DNA of 55,723 bases from a virus (Duplodnaviria > Caudoviricetes): positions 1-55,723 of the IMG/VR virus record IMGVR_UViG_3300021197_001150; one strand, 5' to 3'. The position numbers and the translations under genes were made by a program. The notes under the pieces are model-generated. The model saw only the letters and a list, made by a program, of their open reading frames with translations, had not been told where the DNA came from and did no database searches. Positions 2,611-51,558 of this stretch are shown piece after piece; position 1 is the stretch's first letter, and each line of letters opens with the position of its first letter.

Positions 2611-2687
2611 GCACCCGTAGCTCATCTGGATAGAGCGCCACTTTGCGGAAGTGGAGGTAATAGGTTCGAGTCCTGTCGGGTGCGCCA
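2611..2687 (+). tRNA. tRNA-Arg(GCG)
   Basis: Cloverleaf: GCACCCG/CGGGTGC acceptor, CCACT-TTGCGGA-AGTGG anticodon arm, TTCGAGT T-loop, A20, encoded CCA. Confidence 0.92.
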
Positions 2688-2715: not shown

Positions 2716-2743
2716 GCTCAGAACACTGAGCAAGTTTTTTTTT
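2716..2743 (+). terminator. Terminator-like hairpin between tRNA-Arg and asparagine synthetase gene
   Basis: GCTCAG-AACA-CTGAGC followed by AAG and 9 T. Confidence 0.55.
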
Positions 2744-2768: not shown

Positions 2769-3599
2769 ATGACGCAGTTAATATCCCCAAATAAATTTAC
2801 GAACACAGTTGGCCTTTTAAGGTCATTTTTTTTGGACAAAGGATTCTTAGAAGTCCATACCCAAAACAGACTAAGCATACTTGCCGCATGTGAAGATCCA
2901 TTCAATGTAGCAACATACCAATACGCAGGCAACACTTGGCCATTGCCGCAAACAGGCCAGATGTGGTTAGAACATGAATTATTAAGTAGCCCCGATAGTA
3001 AGGGGTTTTTTTGTGTCTCCACTTCCTATAGACAAGAGCCTAATGCAATACCAGGCAGACATGATATAATATTTCCAATGTTTGAATTTGAGATGCCAGG
3101 TAGCATTGATGATCTTAAAGCAATGGAGTATGAACTATGTGAATACTTAGGCTTTGGTAACATTACAGAAAAGACTTATAGAGACTGGCAAGAGCATTAC
3201 GGACTTGACTGGATCAAAGAGATGGACGCTGAACATGAATTAAAGATGGCGGCAGACTTTGGTCAAACAATGATTACAGACTTTCCAGAGATGACATCAC
3301 CGTTTTGGAATATGAGTAGAAACGATGGCGGCGGCACAAGTAAAAAGATTGACGTTATCTTAGGTGGTATGGAAACTATTGGGTCAGCAGAGCGTTCATG
3401 TGACGTTGACATGATGCGTAATACATTCCACACAATTACAGATGGTGCTTATAGTGAACTACTGTTTAAACTGTTTGGCAAAGAACGTGTAGTAGCAGAA
3501 CTTGAAAAGTTTTTAGAGTTTGACTTCTTTCAAAGAGTAGGCGGTGGTATAGGTATTACACGTATGATCCCGGCATTAGAAAAGATCAATAAGATATAA
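2769..3599 (+). CDS. asnA: Asparagine synthetase A, AsnRS-paralog type (class II aaRS catalytic domain without anticodon-binding domain)
   Basis: LPQTGQMWLE, STSYRQE...RH...FPMFEFE (motif 2), METIGSAER, GGGIGITR (motif 3); no N-terminal OB fold; ATG at 2769 preferred over TTG 2742. Confidence 0.75.
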   Translation: MTQLISPNKFTNTVGLLRSFFLDKGFLEVHTQNRLSILAACEDPFNVATYQYAGNTWPLPQTGQMWLEHELLSSPDSKGFFCVSTSYRQEPNAIPGRHDIIFPMFEFEMPGSIDDLKAMEYELCEYLGFGNITEKTYRDWQEHYGLDWIKEMDAEHELKMAADFGQTMITDFPEMTSPFWNMSRNDGGGTSKKIDVILGGMETIGSAERSCDVDMMRNTFHTITDGAYSELLFKLFGKERVVAELEKFLEFDFFQRVGGGIGITRMIPALEKINKI

Positions 3600-3605
3600 A
3601 ACTAA

Positions 3606-3690
3606 TCTGGGGTGGTGAAATCGGTAAACACGCACGATTGTTTCTCGTGTGACGAAAGTCTTGGAGGTTCGAGTCCTTCCCCCAGAGCCA
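3606..3690 (+). tRNA. Atypical tRNA with Asn anticodon (GTT) and class II long variable arm
   Basis: TCTGGGG/CCCCAGA acceptor, G73, CCA; D-arm GTG/CAC; CACGA-TTGTTTC-TCGTG; variable arm GAC-GAAA-GTC; GGAGG-TTCGAGT-CCTTC. Confidence 0.85.
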
Positions 3691-3772: not shown

Positions 3773-4837
3773 ATGCCACCACGTAATCATAAGAGTTGGT
3801 TAGCACAACCAAACGTAGAATCAATCAGCAGTTCAGCATATAACGATCCAGAAGTATTTGCACAAGAGCAAGAACGTATCTTTTCAAAGGTATGGGTACC
3901 TATGTGTCACAAATCGGAAATGCCTGAGCCAGGTAATTTTAGAACAACACAAATTGCAGGAGTTAATGTTATTGCAGTCAATAACGGTGACTCAATTAAG
4001 TCTTATTTGAATACAGGTAAGTTTAATACACCTTCAGGAACAATGACACGAGTAGAGTTTTTAATGGACGACTATACTCCGTTACCTACAGAAGTAAAAC
4101 ACGGAGGTATGGTATGGACAACACTTGATCCTAATCCTACGCAGAGTGTAGAAGAATGGACAGCAGGAGCATTTGATTGTATTGCAGATGCTATTGACAC
4201 AGAAGAAATGGAAGTGTTCCATTACCACAAAGCAATCATAGATACAAACTACAAACTATGGCATGATACTAACAGTGAATTCTATCATGACTTCATGCAC
4301 TACTTTAATCGTGTAAGTGGATTCAACGATGAATACTTTGCACGTAAGAATATACCTTTTGACAACGGTCATGTAAACGTAAGCAGTTTCACAGTAAACT
4401 ATGAGGAGTATGACGGCTTCGAAGATAGAGGTGAACTGTCCTTTCCTAATCTACCACCCAACCAATGGTATATGGTAGACTTGTTTCCCGGATTTAATTT
4501 TAATCTACGTGGAAGTGCATATCGTTCAGACTCAGTAACTCCATTAGGTCCTAACCGTGTACTGATTGAGTTTAGGGGATACGGACTAAAAAAAGATACT
4601 AAAGAAGAACGTTTGACACGAATCAAACATCACAACAGTATATGGGGACCATTTGGTCGCAACCTCCATGAGGATCTAATTGGAGTTGCTGGGCAAGGAA
4701 CAACTATGCGTGAAGGTACAGAGAACAGACGTGTACTGCATGGTAGACATGAGAACGGTACTATACATGATGAAGTTGGTATGCGCCATTACTATACCGA
4801 ATGGGGTAAGTATTTGGATATTAATCCTTATCAATAA
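3773..4837 (+). CDS. msmA: Methanesulfonate monooxygenase hydroxylase alpha subunit-like protein lacking the Rieske cluster
   Basis: EVFHYHKAIIDTNYKLWHDTNSEFYHDFMHYFNR and WGPFGRNLHEDL are near-identical to recalled MsmA; CxH/CxxH Rieske ligands absent. Confidence 0.85.
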   Translation: MPPRNHKSWLAQPNVESISSSAYNDPEVFAQEQERIFSKVWVPMCHKSEMPEPGNFRTTQIAGVNVIAVNNGDSIKSYLNTGKFNTPSGTMTRVEFLMDDYTPLPTEVKHGGMVWTTLDPNPTQSVEEWTAGAFDCIADAIDTEEMEVFHYHKAIIDTNYKLWHDTNSEFYHDFMHYFNRVSGFNDEYFARKNIPFDNGHVNVSSFTVNYEEYDGFEDRGELSFPNLPPNQWYMVDLFPGFNFNLRGSAYRSDSVTPLGPNRVLIEFRGYGLKKDTKEERLTRIKHHNSIWGPFGRNLHEDLIGVAGQGTTMREGTENRRVLHGRHENGTIHDEVGMRHYYTEWGKYLDINPYQ

Positions 4838-4852
4838 TTGAACTAATTCCGG

Positions 4853-4881
4853 TTGACAACTGTATACTTTGACTGTATATT
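4853..4881 (+). promoter_or_regulatory. Sigma70-type promoter
   Basis: TTGACA-17nt-TATATT with TG extension. Confidence 0.65.
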
Positions 4882-4909
4882 AAATATAATAACAGTTAAG
4901 GACGACTCT

Positions 4910-5697: not shown

Positions 5698-7038
5698 ATG
5701 AGAACACAACCACAGGACGTAATTTACAAACTTGAACAGCACAACGGTAGGTTAGACAAAGAAACTATCGTGTTCAGTGCTATGGGTGAAGGACTTGATG
5801 AGTTCTTCGAAGGTGTAACAATGGCACTTGACCCACTTGTAACATTTGGCGTTAAACAAGTTCCAGAGAAAGCAGAGAATGAAGTGCTATCAGCACAAGG
5901 TTGTGCTTGGCCAGTATTCAAAGAACTTGCAGATAAACTAATTGCAAGAGAACTTACAGGACATGCGGCACGTGATGCTATTGAACTTGTAATGAGTTCA
6001 GCAACGGCAGATCAGTGGAATGGTTTTTATCGTAGGATCCTTATTAAAGATTTACGTTGTGGAGTAAGTGAAAAGACAGTAAACAAAGTTGCTAAAAGAT
6101 TTAACATGAAGGGCGAAACAAAATATGTTATCCCTACATTCACTTGTGCATTAGCACACGACTCTGCCAATCATGAAAAGAAGATGTCAGGCAAGAAACA
6201 AATTGAAGTTAAACTTGATGGCGTAAGAGTTATTACAATTATACAAGGTGACAAAGTAGAAATGTTTAGTCGTAATGGTAAGCAGTTTCATAACTTTGAT
6301 CACATTATTGAAGAAATTAAAACAGTACTCAAAGATAAGCCTGCACCATATGACCTTGTGTTAGACGGTGAGGTAATGAGTGCTAACTTCCAAGACTTAA
6401 TGAAACAGGTACATAGAAAGAGTGGTGGTACAGCCAAAGATGCAGTATTGCATTTGTTTGACACTATCCCATTATCCGATTTCAAACAAGGTGGTTGGGA
6501 CAAACCACAGTCAACAAGAAGTGCAATTACTAAACATTGGGTAGAAAGCAACCAGGACGTTTTAAAGCACGTACAAGCACTTGAGTGGGAAGATGTAGAC
6601 TTAGACACTCCCGAAGGCCAAGAACGCTTTGTAGAGCTTAATAAGACGGCTGTAGACGGTGGTTATGAAGGTGTAATGATCAAAGACATTGATGCACCCT
6701 ACGAATGCAAACGTACACATGCTTGGTTAAAGGCAAAACCATTTATTGAGATTACACTAAAAGTCGTTGACGTCGAGGAAGGCACTGGACGTAATGCGGG
6801 AAGATTAGGTGCCGTAATAGTAGAAGGAGAAGATGATGGATACAATTATCACCTTAACTGTGGGAGCGGCTTCACTGATAGTCAACGTGATGAGTACTGG
6901 ACTGCACGTGATAGTCTCATTGGTCAGTTAATTGAAATTAGAGCAGACGCTCGAACTAAGTCGCAAGACTCGGAAACGTATAGTTTACGTTTCCCAAGAT
7001 TTAAGTCGTTTCGTGAGTATAAAGGAGAAAAAGCATGA
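5698..7038 (+). CDS. ATP-dependent DNA ligase
   Basis: EVKLDGVR (motif I), LDGEV, YEGVMIK, WLKAK, LRFPRF. Confidence 0.95.
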   Translation: MRTQPQDVIYKLEQHNGRLDKETIVFSAMGEGLDEFFEGVTMALDPLVTFGVKQVPEKAENEVLSAQGCAWPVFKELADKLIARELTGHAARDAIELVMSSATADQWNGFYRRILIKDLRCGVSEKTVNKVAKRFNMKGETKYVIPTFTCALAHDSANHEKKMSGKKQIEVKLDGVRVITIIQGDKVEMFSRNGKQFHNFDHIIEEIKTVLKDKPAPYDLVLDGEVMSANFQDLMKQVHRKSGGTAKDAVLHLFDTIPLSDFKQGGWDKPQSTRSAITKHWVESNQDVLKHVQALEWEDVDLDTPEGQERFVELNKTAVDGGYEGVMIKDIDAPYECKRTHAWLKAKPFIEITLKVVDVEEGTGRNAGRLGAVIVEGEDDGYNYHLNCGSGFTDSQRDEYWTARDSLIGQLIEIRADARTKSQDSETYSLRFPRFKSFREYKGEKA

Positions 7039-48794: not shown

Positions 48795-49315
48795 AATTAA
48801 AATTAGTATTACACCCAAATGAATGGTTAGAGAAACAAGTTAAGCCTTTTGATTTTAATAGTCTTGATGCCAAAGATGTTGAGAAACAAATGATTGATAT
48901 TATGGATAAGAATGCAGGAGTTGGTCTAAGTGCTAACCAAGTTGGTCTTGATGGACAAGTTTTTATTTTAAAGCCACACGAAATGGAAGGCTTTGATGAA
49001 CCGTTTGCACTATTCAATCCCGAAGTTGTTAAAATAGATGATAGGGTTATTGAAGGTGAAGAAGGCTGTTTAAGTTATCCAGGTTTATACTTTAAAGTTA
49101 AACGTGCAACTGCTTTGGTTGCCAAGTATCTTGACTCTAACGGCAAAGAGTGTACAATAGAGTTTGTAGGTTATAATGCAAGGATCTTTCAACATGAATA
49201 TGATCATTTACAAGGCATAAACTTTACAGATAGAGTAAGTAAACTTAGATTAGATATGGCTAAGAAGAAACAACAAAAATTATTTAAAAAATATAAGGTG
49301 GATGTTAAATGGTAG
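48791..49315 (+). CDS. def: Peptide deformylase
   Basis: GVGLSANQVG, EGCLS, QHEYDHLQG. Confidence 0.95.
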   Translation: MKLKLVLHPNEWLEKQVKPFDFNSLDAKDVEKQMIDIMDKNAGVGLSANQVGLDGQVFILKPHEMEGFDEPFALFNPEVVKIDDRVIEGEEGCLSYPGLYFKVKRATALVAKYLDSNGKECTIEFVGYNARIFQHEYDHLQGINFTDRVSKLRLDMAKKKQQKLFKKYKVDVKW

Positions 49316-51558
49316 AACCGAGCGACGAGTTACAAGCAGTATTCGATAAGTCAATTAATGACGCTAAGAAGTTAAGACACGAGTATGTTACTCTTGAACA
49401 CTTGTTATTCTCTATGCTATGCGTAGATAACTTTGTAAAAGTAGTTGAAGGTGCTGGTGCTGATCCTGAGTTCATTAAAAAGAACATTGAACATTATCTC
49501 AAAACAGAATTAAACGAAATTAAAGTCAAAGATGACATTAAAAAGTTTAAGCCAAAGAAAACTGCAACAGTAGAACGTGTATTAAATAGAGCATTTACAC
49601 AAGTATTGTTTAGTGGACGTAACAGTATTGAAGTTACTGATGTGTTCTTAAGTATTATGGGCGAAAAGAAAAGTTGGTCATACTATCATATTCAAAAGTC
49701 AGGTCTTACAAAAGAAGGCTTTTCAGATTACTTAAACACTGAATTAGATACTATCTATGAAGATGAAGAAATGCGTCAAGTTGCTGAAAAGGCTTTACGT
49801 GACTTTACAACTAACCTTAACAAAGAAGCAGGTAATCAAAAGATTGATCCTGTAATTGGTCGTGCAGAAGAACTTGAAGGCATTGCACTTGCATTAGGCA
49901 GGCGTTCAAAGAACAATGTACTACTTGTTGGTGATCCAGGTGTTGGTAAAACTGCTATTGCAGAAGGACTTGCATATAATATTGTTAATAAAGCAGTACC
50001 AGAGTTCTTACAAGAGTATTCAGTATATAACTTAGACATTAGTGCTATGTTGGCTGGATCAAAATACAGAGGTGACTTTGAAGAACGTTTTAAACTTGTA
50101 ATGAGTGCAATTAAAAAGCAAGGCAAAACGATTGTATTCATAGATGAAGCACACATGATGAATGGTGCTGGTAATGCAGGGTCAGGTGGGTCGAATGACT
50201 TGGCTAATATGTTAAAGCCTGCATTAGGTAAAGGTGATATTAAAGTTGTAGCATCAACTACTTGGGAGGAATACCGCAAATACTTTGAAAAGGATCGTGC
50301 ATTAATGCGTAGGTTCCAACGTCTTAGTGTTTCAGAACCTGATAAGAATGTAACTACAGAAATTTTACAAGGTATTAAAAAGTATTACGAGGAATTTCAT
50401 TCAGTTAACATCACTGATGATGCAATTGATGAAGCAATTAAGTTAAGTGTGAAGTATATGGCTGATAGAAAACTACCAGACAAAGCAATTGACTTATTAG
50501 ACTTGGCTTGTTCACGTTTTAACTTAAAAGAAGTAACAGTACGTGTTGTAGGCAAAGAAGAAATACAGTTTGAACTTGCAAAAGCAGTTAAACTACCGCC
50601 AGAACAAGTACAACAAAAAGAAACAAGTAACCTTGCTAACTTAGATAGCAATCTTAAGAAGCAAGTATACGGACAAGACACTGCAATAGATGAAATTGTA
50701 GATAAGATTCTTGTTGCACAGGCAGGACTTAAATCAGAAAACAAACCAATTGGATCGTTTGTGTTTATGGGTCCAACTGGTGTAGGTAAAACGGAAACAG
50801 CAAGACAACTTGCAAATGAATTAAGTGTTGAACTTGTAAGATTTGATATGTCAGAGTATCAAGAGAAACATAGTGTTGCAAAACTAATTGGATCACCTCC
50901 AGGATATGTAGGTTATGAAGATAGTGCAGGACTATTGATTACAAAATTACAAGAACACCCGAACTGTGTATTACTATTAGATGAGATTGAGAAAGCACAC
51001 CCAGATGTTTCACAAATCTTGCTACAGTTAATGGACAACGGAAAAGTTACAGGTAGCAACGGTAAAGAAGCCGATGCAAAAAATGCCATTCTGATTCTAA
51101 CAACCAACCTTGGTGCAGAACAGGCAGAGAAAAATGCAATCGGCTTCAATGAAGATATGGAAATGGATTACGAAGATACTGAACTTAAAAAGTTCTTTGC
51201 TCCAGAGTTCCGTAATAGACTTGATGGTGTTGTAGCATTTGGTAAACTTGAGAAGAATGTAATGATCAAGATTGTTGGCAAGTTCCTTGTTGAACTTAAA
51301 GACATGCTTACAGAGAAAAAAGTTACTGTTGATATTACAAATGAAGCCATTGATTACCTTGTTGATGTAGGCTTTGATAGTAAGATGGGTGCAAGACCTT
51401 TACAAAGAACTATTGATAAAGAGATCAAGAAGGATCTAAGTAAACTATTATTGTTTGGTGCTTTAAAGACAGGCGGACACGTAGTTATCGATGTTAAAGA
51501 CAATGCTATTGTACTTGTTACGGATAAAGCAACAAAACCCGTAACTGTTGATGCATAA
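49309..51558 (+). CDS. clpA: ATP-dependent Clp protease ATP-binding subunit ClpA-like
   Basis: Two AAA modules GDPGVGKT and GPTGVGKT, GYVG pore loop, IGF ClpP-docking motif. Confidence 0.93.
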   Translation: MVEPSDELQAVFDKSINDAKKLRHEYVTLEHLLFSMLCVDNFVKVVEGAGADPEFIKKNIEHYLKTELNEIKVKDDIKKFKPKKTATVERVLNRAFTQVLFSGRNSIEVTDVFLSIMGEKKSWSYYHIQKSGLTKEGFSDYLNTELDTIYEDEEMRQVAEKALRDFTTNLNKEAGNQKIDPVIGRAEELEGIALALGRRSKNNVLLVGDPGVGKTAIAEGLAYNIVNKAVPEFLQEYSVYNLDISAMLAGSKYRGDFEERFKLVMSAIKKQGKTIVFIDEAHMMNGAGNAGSGGSNDLANMLKPALGKGDIKVVASTTWEEYRKYFEKDRALMRRFQRLSVSEPDKNVTTEILQGIKKYYEEFHSVNITDDAIDEAIKLSVKYMADRKLPDKAIDLLDLACSRFNLKEVTVRVVGKEEIQFELAKAVKLPPEQVQQKETSNLANLDSNLKKQVYGQDTAIDEIVDKILVAQAGLKSENKPIGSFVFMGPTGVGKTETARQLANELSVELVRFDMSEYQEKHSVAKLIGSPPGYVGYEDSAGLLITKLQEHPNCVLLLDEIEKAHPDVSQILLQLMDNGKVTGSNGKEADAKNAILILTTNLGAEQAEKNAIGFNEDMEMDYEDTELKKFFAPEFRNRLDGVVAFGKLEKNVMIKIVGKFLVELKDMLTEKKVTVDITNEAIDYLVDVGFDSKMGARPLQRTIDKEIKKDLSKLLLFGALKTGGHVVIDVKDNAIVLVTDKATKPVTVDA

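What the first reader, a model, noticed from the sequence alone, without database searches (positions are those of the whole stretch)
2769..3690. AsnRS-paralog enzyme immediately followed by the atypical tRNA-Asn: possible dedicated enzyme-tRNA pair
Seen: a class II aaRS catalytic-core protein with no anticodon-binding domain ends 6 nt before the odd tRNA(GTT) and is preceded by tRNA-Arg. Known: archaeal-type asparagine synthetase (AsnRS2) makes free Asn from Asp, NH3 and ATP, while many proteobacteria lack AsnRS and make Asn-tRNA via GatCAB, consuming Gln. Inference: free Asn would be of limited use in a GatCAB-only host. The enzyme might instead act on or with this tRNA, using the long arm in place of anticodon recognition, to give a Gln-independent route to Asn-tRNA.
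Basis: inference. Interest (0 to 1): 0.8.

Follow-up and report, generated by a model that had tools for sequence, protein, structure and literature searches.

The report
Phage AsnRS-like enzyme with odd tRNA-Asn
Many marine phages carry a stripped-down relative of the asparagine tRNA-charging enzyme fused almost back-to-back with an unusually shaped asparagine tRNA, a tightly linked pair whose purpose is still unknown and whose giant-virus relatives sit instead among genes for making pyrimidine nucleotides.

Summary
Window 2769-3599(+) encodes a 276-aa class IIb aaRS catalytic core (X) with no anticodon-binding domain. A tRNA(GUU) with an extra arm starts 6 nt after its stop (3606-3690), and tRNA-Arg lies upstream.

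The pair is conserved in phages. 75 of 78 assessable IMG/VR relatives and 3 of 3 Prochlorococcus myophages (P-SSM2/5/7) have it. Starting from the tRNA, 109 of 109 assessable long-arm tRNA(GUU) genes have X upstream, while canonical phage tRNA-Asn genes do not.

X is not an archaeal AS-AR or an AsnA orthologue. It is a virus-specific family (phrog_29758) closest in sequence and fold to true AsnRS, with ATP and amino-acid motifs intact.

Homologues with the same active-site motifs occur without the tRNA in giant viruses (0 of 98 assessable) and in two huge phages. In giant viruses X is fused to, or sits beside, dihydroorotate dehydrogenase and UMP synthase.

Tested Prochlorococcus genomes lack AsnRS, so free Asn would be useless for translation there.

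My reading (0.42): X is a tRNA-independent AsnA-type ligase on an aspartate-family substrate, and the tRNA is charged by the host. The main rival (0.33) is a dedicated minimal synthetase-tRNA pair. I found no paper analysing either.

The parts
2611..2687 (+). tRNA-Arg (anticodon GCG), upstream neighbour; X often sits inside phage tRNA arrays
   Evidence: ARAGORN; Rfam tRNA 60.6 bits. Other tRNAs flank X in P-SSM7 and several IMG/VR loci.
2716..2741 (+). terminator-like hairpin plus T-run between tRNA-Arg and X
   Evidence: Consensus scan only; function not shown.
2769..3599 (+). X: free-standing AsnRS-derived class IIb catalytic core, 276 aa, family phrog_29758
   Evidence: Pfam PF00152 E 1.8e-15; phrog_29758 E 9e-128, function unknown. 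AF2 model pLDDT 96. Best Foldseek matches are AsnRS-adenylate complexes, E 1.6e-17 to 6e-17, TM 0.72-0.79. Motif 2, motif 3 and pocket residues are near-invariant across 51 representatives.
3600..3605 (+). 6-nt spacer between the stop codon and tRNA position 1
   Evidence: Sequence. The spacer is 4-10 nt in 42 of 43 distinct relatives.
3606..3690 (+). atypical tRNA(GUU): acceptor 3606-3612/3680-3686 (U1:A72), anticodon 3640-3642, U37 at 3643, G73 at 3687, CCA 3688-3690
   Evidence: ARAGORN and Rfam; parsing. RNAalifold on 43 distinct relatives gives a cloverleaf plus an extra arm, with compensatory changes in 17 of 24 pairs.
3650..3662 (+). variable arm (3-bp stem, GAAA loop); 13-32 nt in relatives
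   Evidence: Strain variants in RNA-library contigs branch inside it (loose ends at 3651).

Best explanation
The locus is a conserved, co-inherited two-gene phage cassette. It consists of a free-standing AsnRS-derived class IIb adenylate-forming enzyme (X) and, 4-10 nt after its stop codon, a structurally constrained tRNA(GUU) with an extra arm.

I think X most likely catalyses a tRNA-independent reaction of the kind that class IIb cores without an anticodon domain have evolved twice before (AsnA, archaeal AS-AR). That is ATP-dependent activation of a carboxyl group of an aspartate-family substrate, followed by amide-bond formation.

The giant-virus contexts point to the pyrimidine pathway upstream of dihydroorotate dehydrogenase. 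One example would be N-carbamoyl-aspartate plus ATP giving dihydroorotate. Asn synthesis from Asp plus NH3 is the alternative.

The tRNA keeps the standard bacterial tRNA-Asn identity set (GUU, G73, U1:A72). It is therefore probably charged by host enzymes (ND-AspRS plus GatCAB in Prochlorococcus) and decodes AAY codons.

Shown: the anatomy, the linkage, the family relations and the contexts. Inferred: the chemistry, the substrate, who charges the tRNA, and co-transcription. This reading does not explain why the odd tRNA form is found only next to X.
For: 1. X occurs without the tRNA.
- 0 of 22 assessable non-phage-like loci from the second IMG/VR scan have it; 11 of that scan's 28 contigs are named as giant-virus MAGs.
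- 0 of 76 assessable metagenome loci have it.
- Neither of 2 huge phages has it adjacent. LR756508 has only a canonical 74-nt tRNA-Asn, 287 kb from X.
- 3 of 78 close phage relatives lack it (L057, L058, L078).

2. Active-site and motif-2-loop sequences are the same in tRNA-plus and tRNA-minus clades. No tRNA-plus-specific signature is shared by the two tRNA-plus clades.

3. Pyrimidine link.
- 8 of 14 longer homologues are PyrD(PF01180)-X fusions, and one is X-OMP decarboxylase.
- 14 of 108 loci (L087-L194) have PyrD and/or a PRT-OMPdecase (UMPS-type) gene within the flank.
- In an unbiased census of ORFs within 4 kb of X in 82 non-redundant tRNA-minus loci, the three commonest neighbour families were DHO_dh (10 loci), OMPdecase (9) and RNR small subunit (7).

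4. X has no extra domain and is very acidic: net charge -16 in the window, median -19 in the tRNA-plus set.

5. The tRNA keeps U1:A72, G73 and GUU in 43 of 43 distinct main-clade sequences, while acceptor pairs 2-7 covary. Canonical X-less phage tRNA-Asn genes have the same acceptor features.
Against: - The linkage is near-absolute and runs both ways in phages. 109 of 109 assessable long-arm tRNA(GUU) genes have X upstream, while 0 of 4 assessable canonical tRNA-Asn genes do.
- An AsnRS-derived enzyme next to a tRNA-Asn would be a 1-in-20 coincidence if the two were unrelated.
- The tRNA next to X is the only tRNA ARAGORN found in the 8.8-kb P-SSM2 locus.
- X shares a Leu-Glu pair with AsnRS where AspRS has Lys-Gln. 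Its best structural matches are AsnRS-Asn-adenylate complexes. It keeps a full-length, highly conserved motif-2 loop.
- Only 1 of 8 phage records searched has a PyrD-like gene (G001, 8-9 kb from X). P-SSM2 and P-SSM7 have none.
- If X makes free Asn, that Asn cannot be used for translation in Prochlorococcus, where no AsnRS was found.
- No assay exists. The dihydroorotate reaction is my inference, not a known activity of this fold.
Confidence: 0.42

Rival explanations
1. Dedicated minimal synthetase-tRNA pair. X forms Asn-AMP (or Asp-AMP) and transfers it to the 3' end of its own co-transcribed tRNA(GUU), recognising the acceptor end and the type-II shape instead of the anticodon. This would give the phage a GatCAB-independent supply of Asn-tRNA in hosts that lack AsnRS. 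Giant-virus homologues would then have a different acceptor.
For: - Linkage runs both ways: 75 of 78 assessable relatives starting from X, and 109 of 109 starting from the tRNA.
- The pair moves as a unit between different genome contexts in P-SSM7 and P-SSM2/5.
- The odd tRNA form was never seen without X, whereas X was seen without the tRNA.
- X has AsnRS-type pocket residues and fold.
- Prochlorococcus lacks AsnRS but 2 of 3 tested strains have AsnB-type genes.
- A second tRNA-plus clade (L104, L106-L109; 49-52% identity) has the same long arm, U37 and G73.
Against: - X has no anticodon-binding or other RNA-binding domain and carries a net charge of -16 to -19.
- The arm's length and sequence are hypervariable.
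- GUU and U1:A72 invariance is what host ND-AspRS, GatCAB and the ribosome would demand.
- tRNA-less homologues have identical catalytic motifs and pyrimidine-gene fusions.
- No class IIb core lacking its anticodon domain is known to me to charge tRNA efficiently (recalled).
Confidence: 0.33
2. The host ND-AspRS makes Asp-tRNA(GUU), and X amidates it on the tRNA with free ammonia (beta-carboxyl adenylation). This would be a Gln-independent replacement for GatCAB.
For: The host lacks AsnRS. The tRNA keeps ND-AspRS-type elements. AsnA and AS-AR show that this fold can activate a beta-carboxyl (recalled; PMC3532385 section 8, read).
Against: Giant-virus hosts have no Asp-tRNA(Asn) pool to my knowledge, yet their X has the same active-site motifs. 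The same holds for the huge phage that has only a distant canonical tRNA-Asn. The conserved Glu68/Arg209 pair would lose its partner if the alpha-carboxyl were esterified (inference).
Confidence: 0.05
3. GluQRS-like tRNA modification. X, like the truncated GluRS paralogue YadB/GluQRS (recalled), attaches an amino acid to a nucleoside in the anticodon loop of this tRNA rather than to its 3' end.
For: It is an aaRS paralogue without an anticodon domain, paired with one tRNA. G34-U35-U36 are invariant while positions 33 and 37 vary.
Against: There is no direct evidence. tRNA-less homologues have the same motifs. The pyrimidine link is left unexplained.
Confidence: 0.05

Closest known systems
Asparaginyl-tRNA synthetase (AsnRS), class IIb
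   Same: Catalytic-core fold. The best profile hits are 2xti/2xgt at 8e-15. The best Foldseek hits are 9sh8, 1x54 and 2xgt. X shares the Q..Q..LE and SYR.E stretches, motifs 2 and 3, and the E...R pocket pair.
   Different: X has no N-terminal anticodon-binding domain and is about 30 residues shorter between motifs 2 and 3. It scores 29.8 bits against a 414-bit cut-off. It is a virus-only family, and tRNA charging is untested.
Archaeal asparagine synthetase AS-AR (AsnRS2; PDB 3p8t) and bacterial AsnA
   Same: Free-standing class IIb core of similar size (294 aa for 3p8t). This is the precedent for tRNA-independent amide-forming chemistry on this fold.
   Different: X is not an orthologue. It scores 13.8 bits against a 389-bit cut-off for NF005055. 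The profile E-value to 3p8t is 4e-7, weaker than to AsnRS and AspRS. There is no Pfam AsnA hit. AS-AR is not known to me to be paired with a tRNA gene or fused to PyrD (recalled).
EpmA/PoxA/GenX and GluQRS (YadB): truncated aaRS paralogues that modify a tRNA mimic (EF-P) or a tRNA anticodon
   Same: aaRS catalytic core without an anticodon domain, with a dedicated macromolecular acceptor (recalled).
   Different: X scores only 12.9-13.5 bits to the EpmA models. GluQRS is class I. No acceptor is known for X.
Type II tRNAs (Leu, Ser, Tyr, Sec) and allo-tRNAs with non-standard anticodons
   Same: Extra stem-loop in the variable region and a 3-bp D stem. G73 plus a long arm resembles Ser/Sec identity (recalled).
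   Different: The anticodon is GUU, with the bacterial tRNA-Asn acceptor set (U1:A72, G73), a 7/5 acceptor/T arrangement and mostly a pyrimidine at position 37. I know of no cellular tRNA-Asn with a long arm (recalled).

Membership tests
Class IIb aaRS catalytic core (Pfam PF00152) | Match above the gathering score across the core, with motif 2 and motif 3 arginines | tested here: met
   57.3 bits against a 25-bit cut-off, residues 14-275. R88, R97, E106/E108, E202, R209 and R265 are at least 90% conserved in 51 representatives. The AF2 model matches AsnRS, AspRS and LysRS cores.
AsnRS (NCBIfam NF003037) | Full-length protein above the curated cut-off, including the N-terminal OB anticodon-binding domain | tested here: not met
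   29.8 bits against 414. Only residues 132-220 align, and the ORF starts inside the core.
AsnRS (function) | Charges tRNA-Asn with Asn | not testable with these tools
   There is only indirect evidence: AsnRS-like pocket residues and linkage to tRNA(GUU).
Archaeal asparagine synthetase A / AS-AR (NF005055) | Match above the curated cut-off | tested here: not met
   13.8 bits against 389. The profile hit to 3p8t is 4e-7 and ranks below 21 AsnRS/AspRS sequences.
Bacterial AsnA (Pfam AsnA family) | Pfam match | tested here: not met
   PF00152 was the only Pfam hit at E<=1. No E. coli AsnA chain appeared among the PDB hits.
EpmA/GenX | Match above the curated cut-off | tested here: not met
   13.5 and 12.9 bits against cut-offs of 264 and 287.
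tRNA (Rfam RF00005) | Covariance-model score above gathering, and a cloverleaf kept by covariation | tested here: met
   49.5 bits against 29. 17 of 24 pairs have compensatory changes in 43 distinct sequences.
Bacterial tRNA-Asn identity | Anticodon GUU, G73, U1:A72 (feature set recalled from the literature) | tested here: met
   43 of 43 for each feature in the main clade. The second clade (L104, L106-L109) has A1:U72.
Bacterial tRNA-Asn identity | Purine (A) at position 37 and a short variable loop | tested here: not met
   Position 37 is U in 32, A in 8 and C in 3 of 43. The variable region is 13-32 nt. Canonical phage tRNA-Asn genes found in the same scan have A37 and total lengths of 75-76 nt.
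De novo pyrimidine pathway enzyme | Gene fusion or conserved neighbourhood with pyr genes | tested here: inconclusive
   Met in the giant-virus-like clade. Not met in most phages: 1 of 8 phage records has a PyrD-like gene, and the window has none. The activity is untested.

The most novel reading that the evidence does not exclude
X and its tRNA are a natural orthogonal translation pair. X would be an anticodon-domain-less AsnRS that charges only its own type-II-shaped tRNA-Asn. This would let marine phages make Asn-tRNA directly in hosts such as Prochlorococcus, which lack AsnRS and depend on GatCAB. A second unexcluded reading is about as novel: the same fold is a previously unknown ATP-dependent dihydroorotate-forming enzyme of viral pyrimidine synthesis.
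Probability: 0.3. Interest if true: 0.88.

Novelty: new variant of a known kind. Interest (0 to 1): 0.74.

Why it matters
The family is abundant. It is present in cultured cyanophages that have been sequenced since 2005-2010, yet it is annotated only as "tRNA ligase".

If the pair charges itself, it would be the first natural minimalist class IIb synthetase with a private tRNA. It would also show a way for phages to bypass the host's indirect Asn-tRNA pathway, and it would be of interest for genetic-code engineering.

If X is instead a pyrimidine-pathway enzyme, it would be a new reaction for the aaRS fold and a new viral auxiliary metabolic gene. It would be shared by phages of bacteria and giant viruses of algae.

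Either way, the long-arm, mostly U37 tRNA-Asn is a tRNA form I have not seen described.

Tried and rejected
- Literature. Searches found no paper analysing this protein family or a long-arm tRNA-Asn. The only mention was a table row "tRNA ligase, T4-GC 194" in PMC3037559 (passages seen). PMC3532385 was read in passages and section 8; it gave general AsnA background only. Roy 2003 and Blaise 2011 were not held, so what I say about AS-AR chemistry is recalled. Supplements were not consulted.
- BLAST of the tRNA against E. coli genomes and the phage collection found nothing. A crude D-arm comparison with other tRNAs in my loci was uninformative. My impression that the body resembles type II tRNAs therefore rests on the 3-bp D stem and extra arm alone.
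- The ATCase (PF02729) search reached only 1 of 5 requested giant-virus records, so pyrB/pyrC absence could not be assessed.
- Neighbours of X in LR756501 (RimK-like ATP-grasp, a PRT-domain protein) and LR756508 gave no clear lead. LR756501 was not scanned for tRNAs beyond 4 kb either side.
- A relaxed tRNA regex on G007 and LR756508 gave only spurious hits plus the canonical tRNA-Asn.
- The host of the window's phage was not identified.
- The ESM Atlas returned only the family's own viral clusters.
- RNA-library contigs from 4 runs of one study bridge tRNA-Arg into X (2400-2834) and X into the tRNA (for example 3515-3652). They are contigs, and DNA carry-over is not excluded, so co-transcription remains an inference.

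Full report
**Observation**

Window 2769-3599(+) is an ATG-started ORF of 276 aa, which I call X. Pfam finds only the class II D/K/N synthetase core, at E 1.8e-15 over residues 14-275. There is therefore no anticodon-binding domain. PHROGs places X in phrog_29758, function unknown, at E 9e-128.

ARAGORN and Rfam agree on two tRNAs. One is tRNA-Arg(GCG) at 2611-2687. The other is an 85-nt tRNA(GUU) at 3606-3690, which starts 6 nt after the stop codon.

The tRNA(GUU) has these features:
- U1:A72, G73 and an encoded CCA
- a 3-bp D stem
- a 13-nt variable region that forms a 3-bp stem with a GAAA loop
- U at position 37

**The pair is conserved in phages, in both directions**

Among annotated phages, X occurs in Prochlorococcus myophages P-SSM7, P-SSM2 and P-SSM5 at 63-68% identity, annotated "tRNA ligase". 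It also occurs in two uncultured huge phages at 46-47% identity. All three cyanophages have an 85-88-nt tRNA(GUU) directly after X. Their flanking genes differ: X sits between gp23 and gp3 in P-SSM7, and between hypothetical genes and a lipase in P-SSM2/5.

IMG/VR held at least 596 relatives, and the best 80 were fetched.
- 78 of the 80 have enough downstream DNA to assess.
- 75 of those 78 carry the tRNA. ARAGORN or my parser called 74. L032 was read by eye and has a bulged T stem.
- L057, L058 and L078 lack it.
- The gap from stop to tRNA is 4-10 nt in 42 of 43 distinct tRNAs.

I then started from the tRNA instead.
- 112 loci hold long-arm tRNA(GUU) genes of 85-111 nt.
- 109 of the 112 have enough upstream DNA, and all 109 have X upstream.
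- Six hold canonical 75-76-nt tRNA-Asn genes with A37 and a short variable loop. None of the 4 assessable ones has X.
- One locus, L338, holds only a 3' remnant.

**The tRNA**

In 43 distinct sequences, GUU, G73 and U1:A72 are invariant. Position 37 is U in 32, A in 8 and C in 3. Position 33 is U in 41. The variable region is 13-32 nt long.

RNAalifold recovers a cloverleaf plus an extra arm. Compensatory changes occur in 17 of 24 pairs. This is therefore a selected, folded tRNA.

The arm's presence is constant, but its length and sequence change even between loci whose X proteins are about 89% identical. Two examples are the window, which has 13 nt, and L008, which has 28 nt.

**What X is**

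A profile of 51 representatives hits eukaryotic and archaeal AsnRS and AspRS best: 2xti at 8e-15 and 1x54 at 7e-12. It hits the archaeal asparagine synthetase 3p8t only at 4e-7, and E. coli AsnA not at all. NCBIfam scores are far below every curated cut-off.

The AF2 model has pLDDT 96. Its best structural matches are AsnRS-adenylate complexes.

X aligns with AsnRS through the Q..Q..LE and SYR.E stretches, the RH of motif 2, and the E...R pocket pair. Where AspRS has Lys-Gln, X and AsnRS both have Leu-Glu. From recall, the Glu/Arg pair reads the Asn carboxamide in AsnRS.

X is thus an AsnRS-derived core with ATP-binding residues intact. It is a family of its own, not an AS-AR or AsnA orthologue.

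**X without the tRNA, and the pyrimidine link**

A search of 1.8 billion representatives gave 437 hits at E<=1e-10. Most are stand-alone proteins of 270-300 aa.

Among 14 longer homologues, 8 are DHO_dh(PF01180)-X fusions seen in several sources. One is X fused to OMP decarboxylase.

Two further scans reached a clade at 50-62% identity:
- 28 IMG/VR loci. Eleven of these contigs are named as giant-virus MAGs.
- 80 metagenome loci. NCLDV major capsid genes lie beside X in 3 loci.

In this clade the tRNA is absent in all 98 assessable loci, 22 plus 76. The exception is five phage-like loci (L104, L106-L109), which have a long-arm, U37, G73 tRNA(GUU) with A1:U72.

PyrD and/or a PRT-OMPdecase (UMPS-type) gene lies within the flank in 14 of 108 loci. 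I also ran an unbiased census of ORFs within 4 kb of X in 82 non-redundant loci. The three commonest neighbour families were DHO_dh (10 loci), OMPdecase (9) and ribonucleotide reductase small subunit (7).

These viruses already encode PyrD, PyrE and PyrF. If X belongs to the pathway, it would therefore act upstream of PyrD.

In the tree, the main tRNA-plus phage clade (36 rows, support 99) is nested among tRNA-minus clades. A second tRNA-plus clade sits near the huge phages. The catalytic motifs and the motif-2 loop are the same in all groups.

Huge phage LR756508 has 31 tRNAs. Among them is one canonical 74-nt tRNA-Asn, which lies 287 kb from X.

In phages the pyrimidine link is weak. Only 1 of 8 phage records searched has a PyrD-like gene. 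That record is G001, where the gene lies 8-9 kb from X in a region that also holds PurA and PRT genes. The window has none.

**Host check**

I searched three Prochlorococcus genomes and Synechococcus RCC307. None has a match near the AsnRS cut-off: the best hits are 113-128 bits against 414, and they lie in LysRS- and AspRS-sized ORFs. AsnB-type genes are present in 3 of the 4 genomes.

Free Asn could not enter translation there without a new enzyme. The host of the window's phage is unknown; that phage is a myophage fragment which CheckV rates as about 15% complete.

**Weighing the readings**

Two strong context signals disagree.
- The near-absolute linkage, the match between an AsnRS-like enzyme and a tRNA-Asn, and the AsnRS-less host favour an enzyme that acts on this tRNA.
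- Several observations favour a tRNA-independent small-molecule ligase of the AsnA/AS-AR kind, plugged into pyrimidine synthesis in giant viruses:
  - tRNA-less homologues have identical active-site motifs.
  - X has recurrent PyrD fusions and pyr/RNR neighbours.
  - X lacks any RNA-binding module and carries a net charge of -16 to -19.
  - The arm is hypervariable.
  - The tRNA retains exactly the elements that host ND-AspRS and GatCAB would need.

One candidate reaction is ATP-driven ring closure of N-carbamoyl-aspartate to dihydroorotate. This is my inference.

My probabilities:
- 0.42: tRNA-independent ligase
- 0.33: dedicated synthetase-tRNA pair
- 0.05: tRNA-dependent amidation
- 0.05: GluQRS-like modification
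- the remainder: something not yet imagined

The ligase reading leaves the strict linkage unexplained. The pair reading leaves the pyrimidine fusions unexplained.

**Novelty**

The literature searches listed under Tried and rejected found no analysis of this family or of a long-arm tRNA-Asn. The only mention is a table row in PMC3037559. I rate it a new variant of a known kind (an aaRS paralogue plus a tRNA). It is real, widespread and testable in cultured cyanophage-host systems.

Noticed in passing
P0124, P0279-P0285 (proteins); L115, L116, L118, L167: Recurrent fusions of class-1-type dihydroorotate dehydrogenase to the X domain, plus one fusion of X to OMP decarboxylase (P0140), in giant-virus-like or eukaryote-like sequences.
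   Followed up: partly
L098/L113 1719-4798; L117 2-2823; L144; L167; L169: Giant-virus loci with PyrD, a UMPS-type PRT-OMPdecase gene and X clustered together. RNR small subunit lies next door in L098.
   Followed up: partly
L002 (NC_006883.2) 4813-4900 versus annotated feature at 6825-6910: The RefSeq P-SSM2 record places its tRNA-Asn feature about 2 kb from where ARAGORN finds the gene, inside CDS PSSM2_205. The offset matches the coordinate shift between the two P-SSM2 records.
   Followed up: partly
L338 about 3440-3554: Only the 3' part (variable arm, T arm, acceptor 3' strand) of a long-arm tRNA(GUU) is present. Unrelated sequence and another GAGCCA end precede it, and no X lies upstream. 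This could be a rearrangement or an insertion scar.
   Followed up: no
window 2611-2687: tRNA-Arg has the uncommon anticodon GCG. CGT is used 100 times, CGC 12 times and AGA 203 times in 15 long ORFs. Asn makes up 6.6% of codons.
   Followed up: no
L004 4940-6502 and 7311-8828 (LR756501): In the 735-kb phage, X is followed by a RimK-like ATP-grasp protein and then by a large protein with a phosphoribosyltransferase domain.
   Followed up: no
window 49309-51558; 2-607; 1729-2106; 3773-4837: The window also encodes a ClpA-like AAA+ protein (phrog_4871). From reading the translations, it encodes a peroxiredoxin-like and an IscU-like protein. The gene after the tRNA is related to ring-hydroxylating oxygenase alpha subunits.
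   Followed up: no
L392 (G001:163000-182000): A phage contig with X plus its tRNA also carries adenylosuccinate synthetase, two PRT genes, a short PyrD-like gene, SAM synthetase and NeuB within 13 kb.
   Followed up: partly
L403-L427 (LR756508) 434334-434405: ARAGORN calls a 72-nt tRNA with anticodon CTA (an amber-reading tRNA, labelled Pyl) in the 484-kb phage.
   Followed up: no
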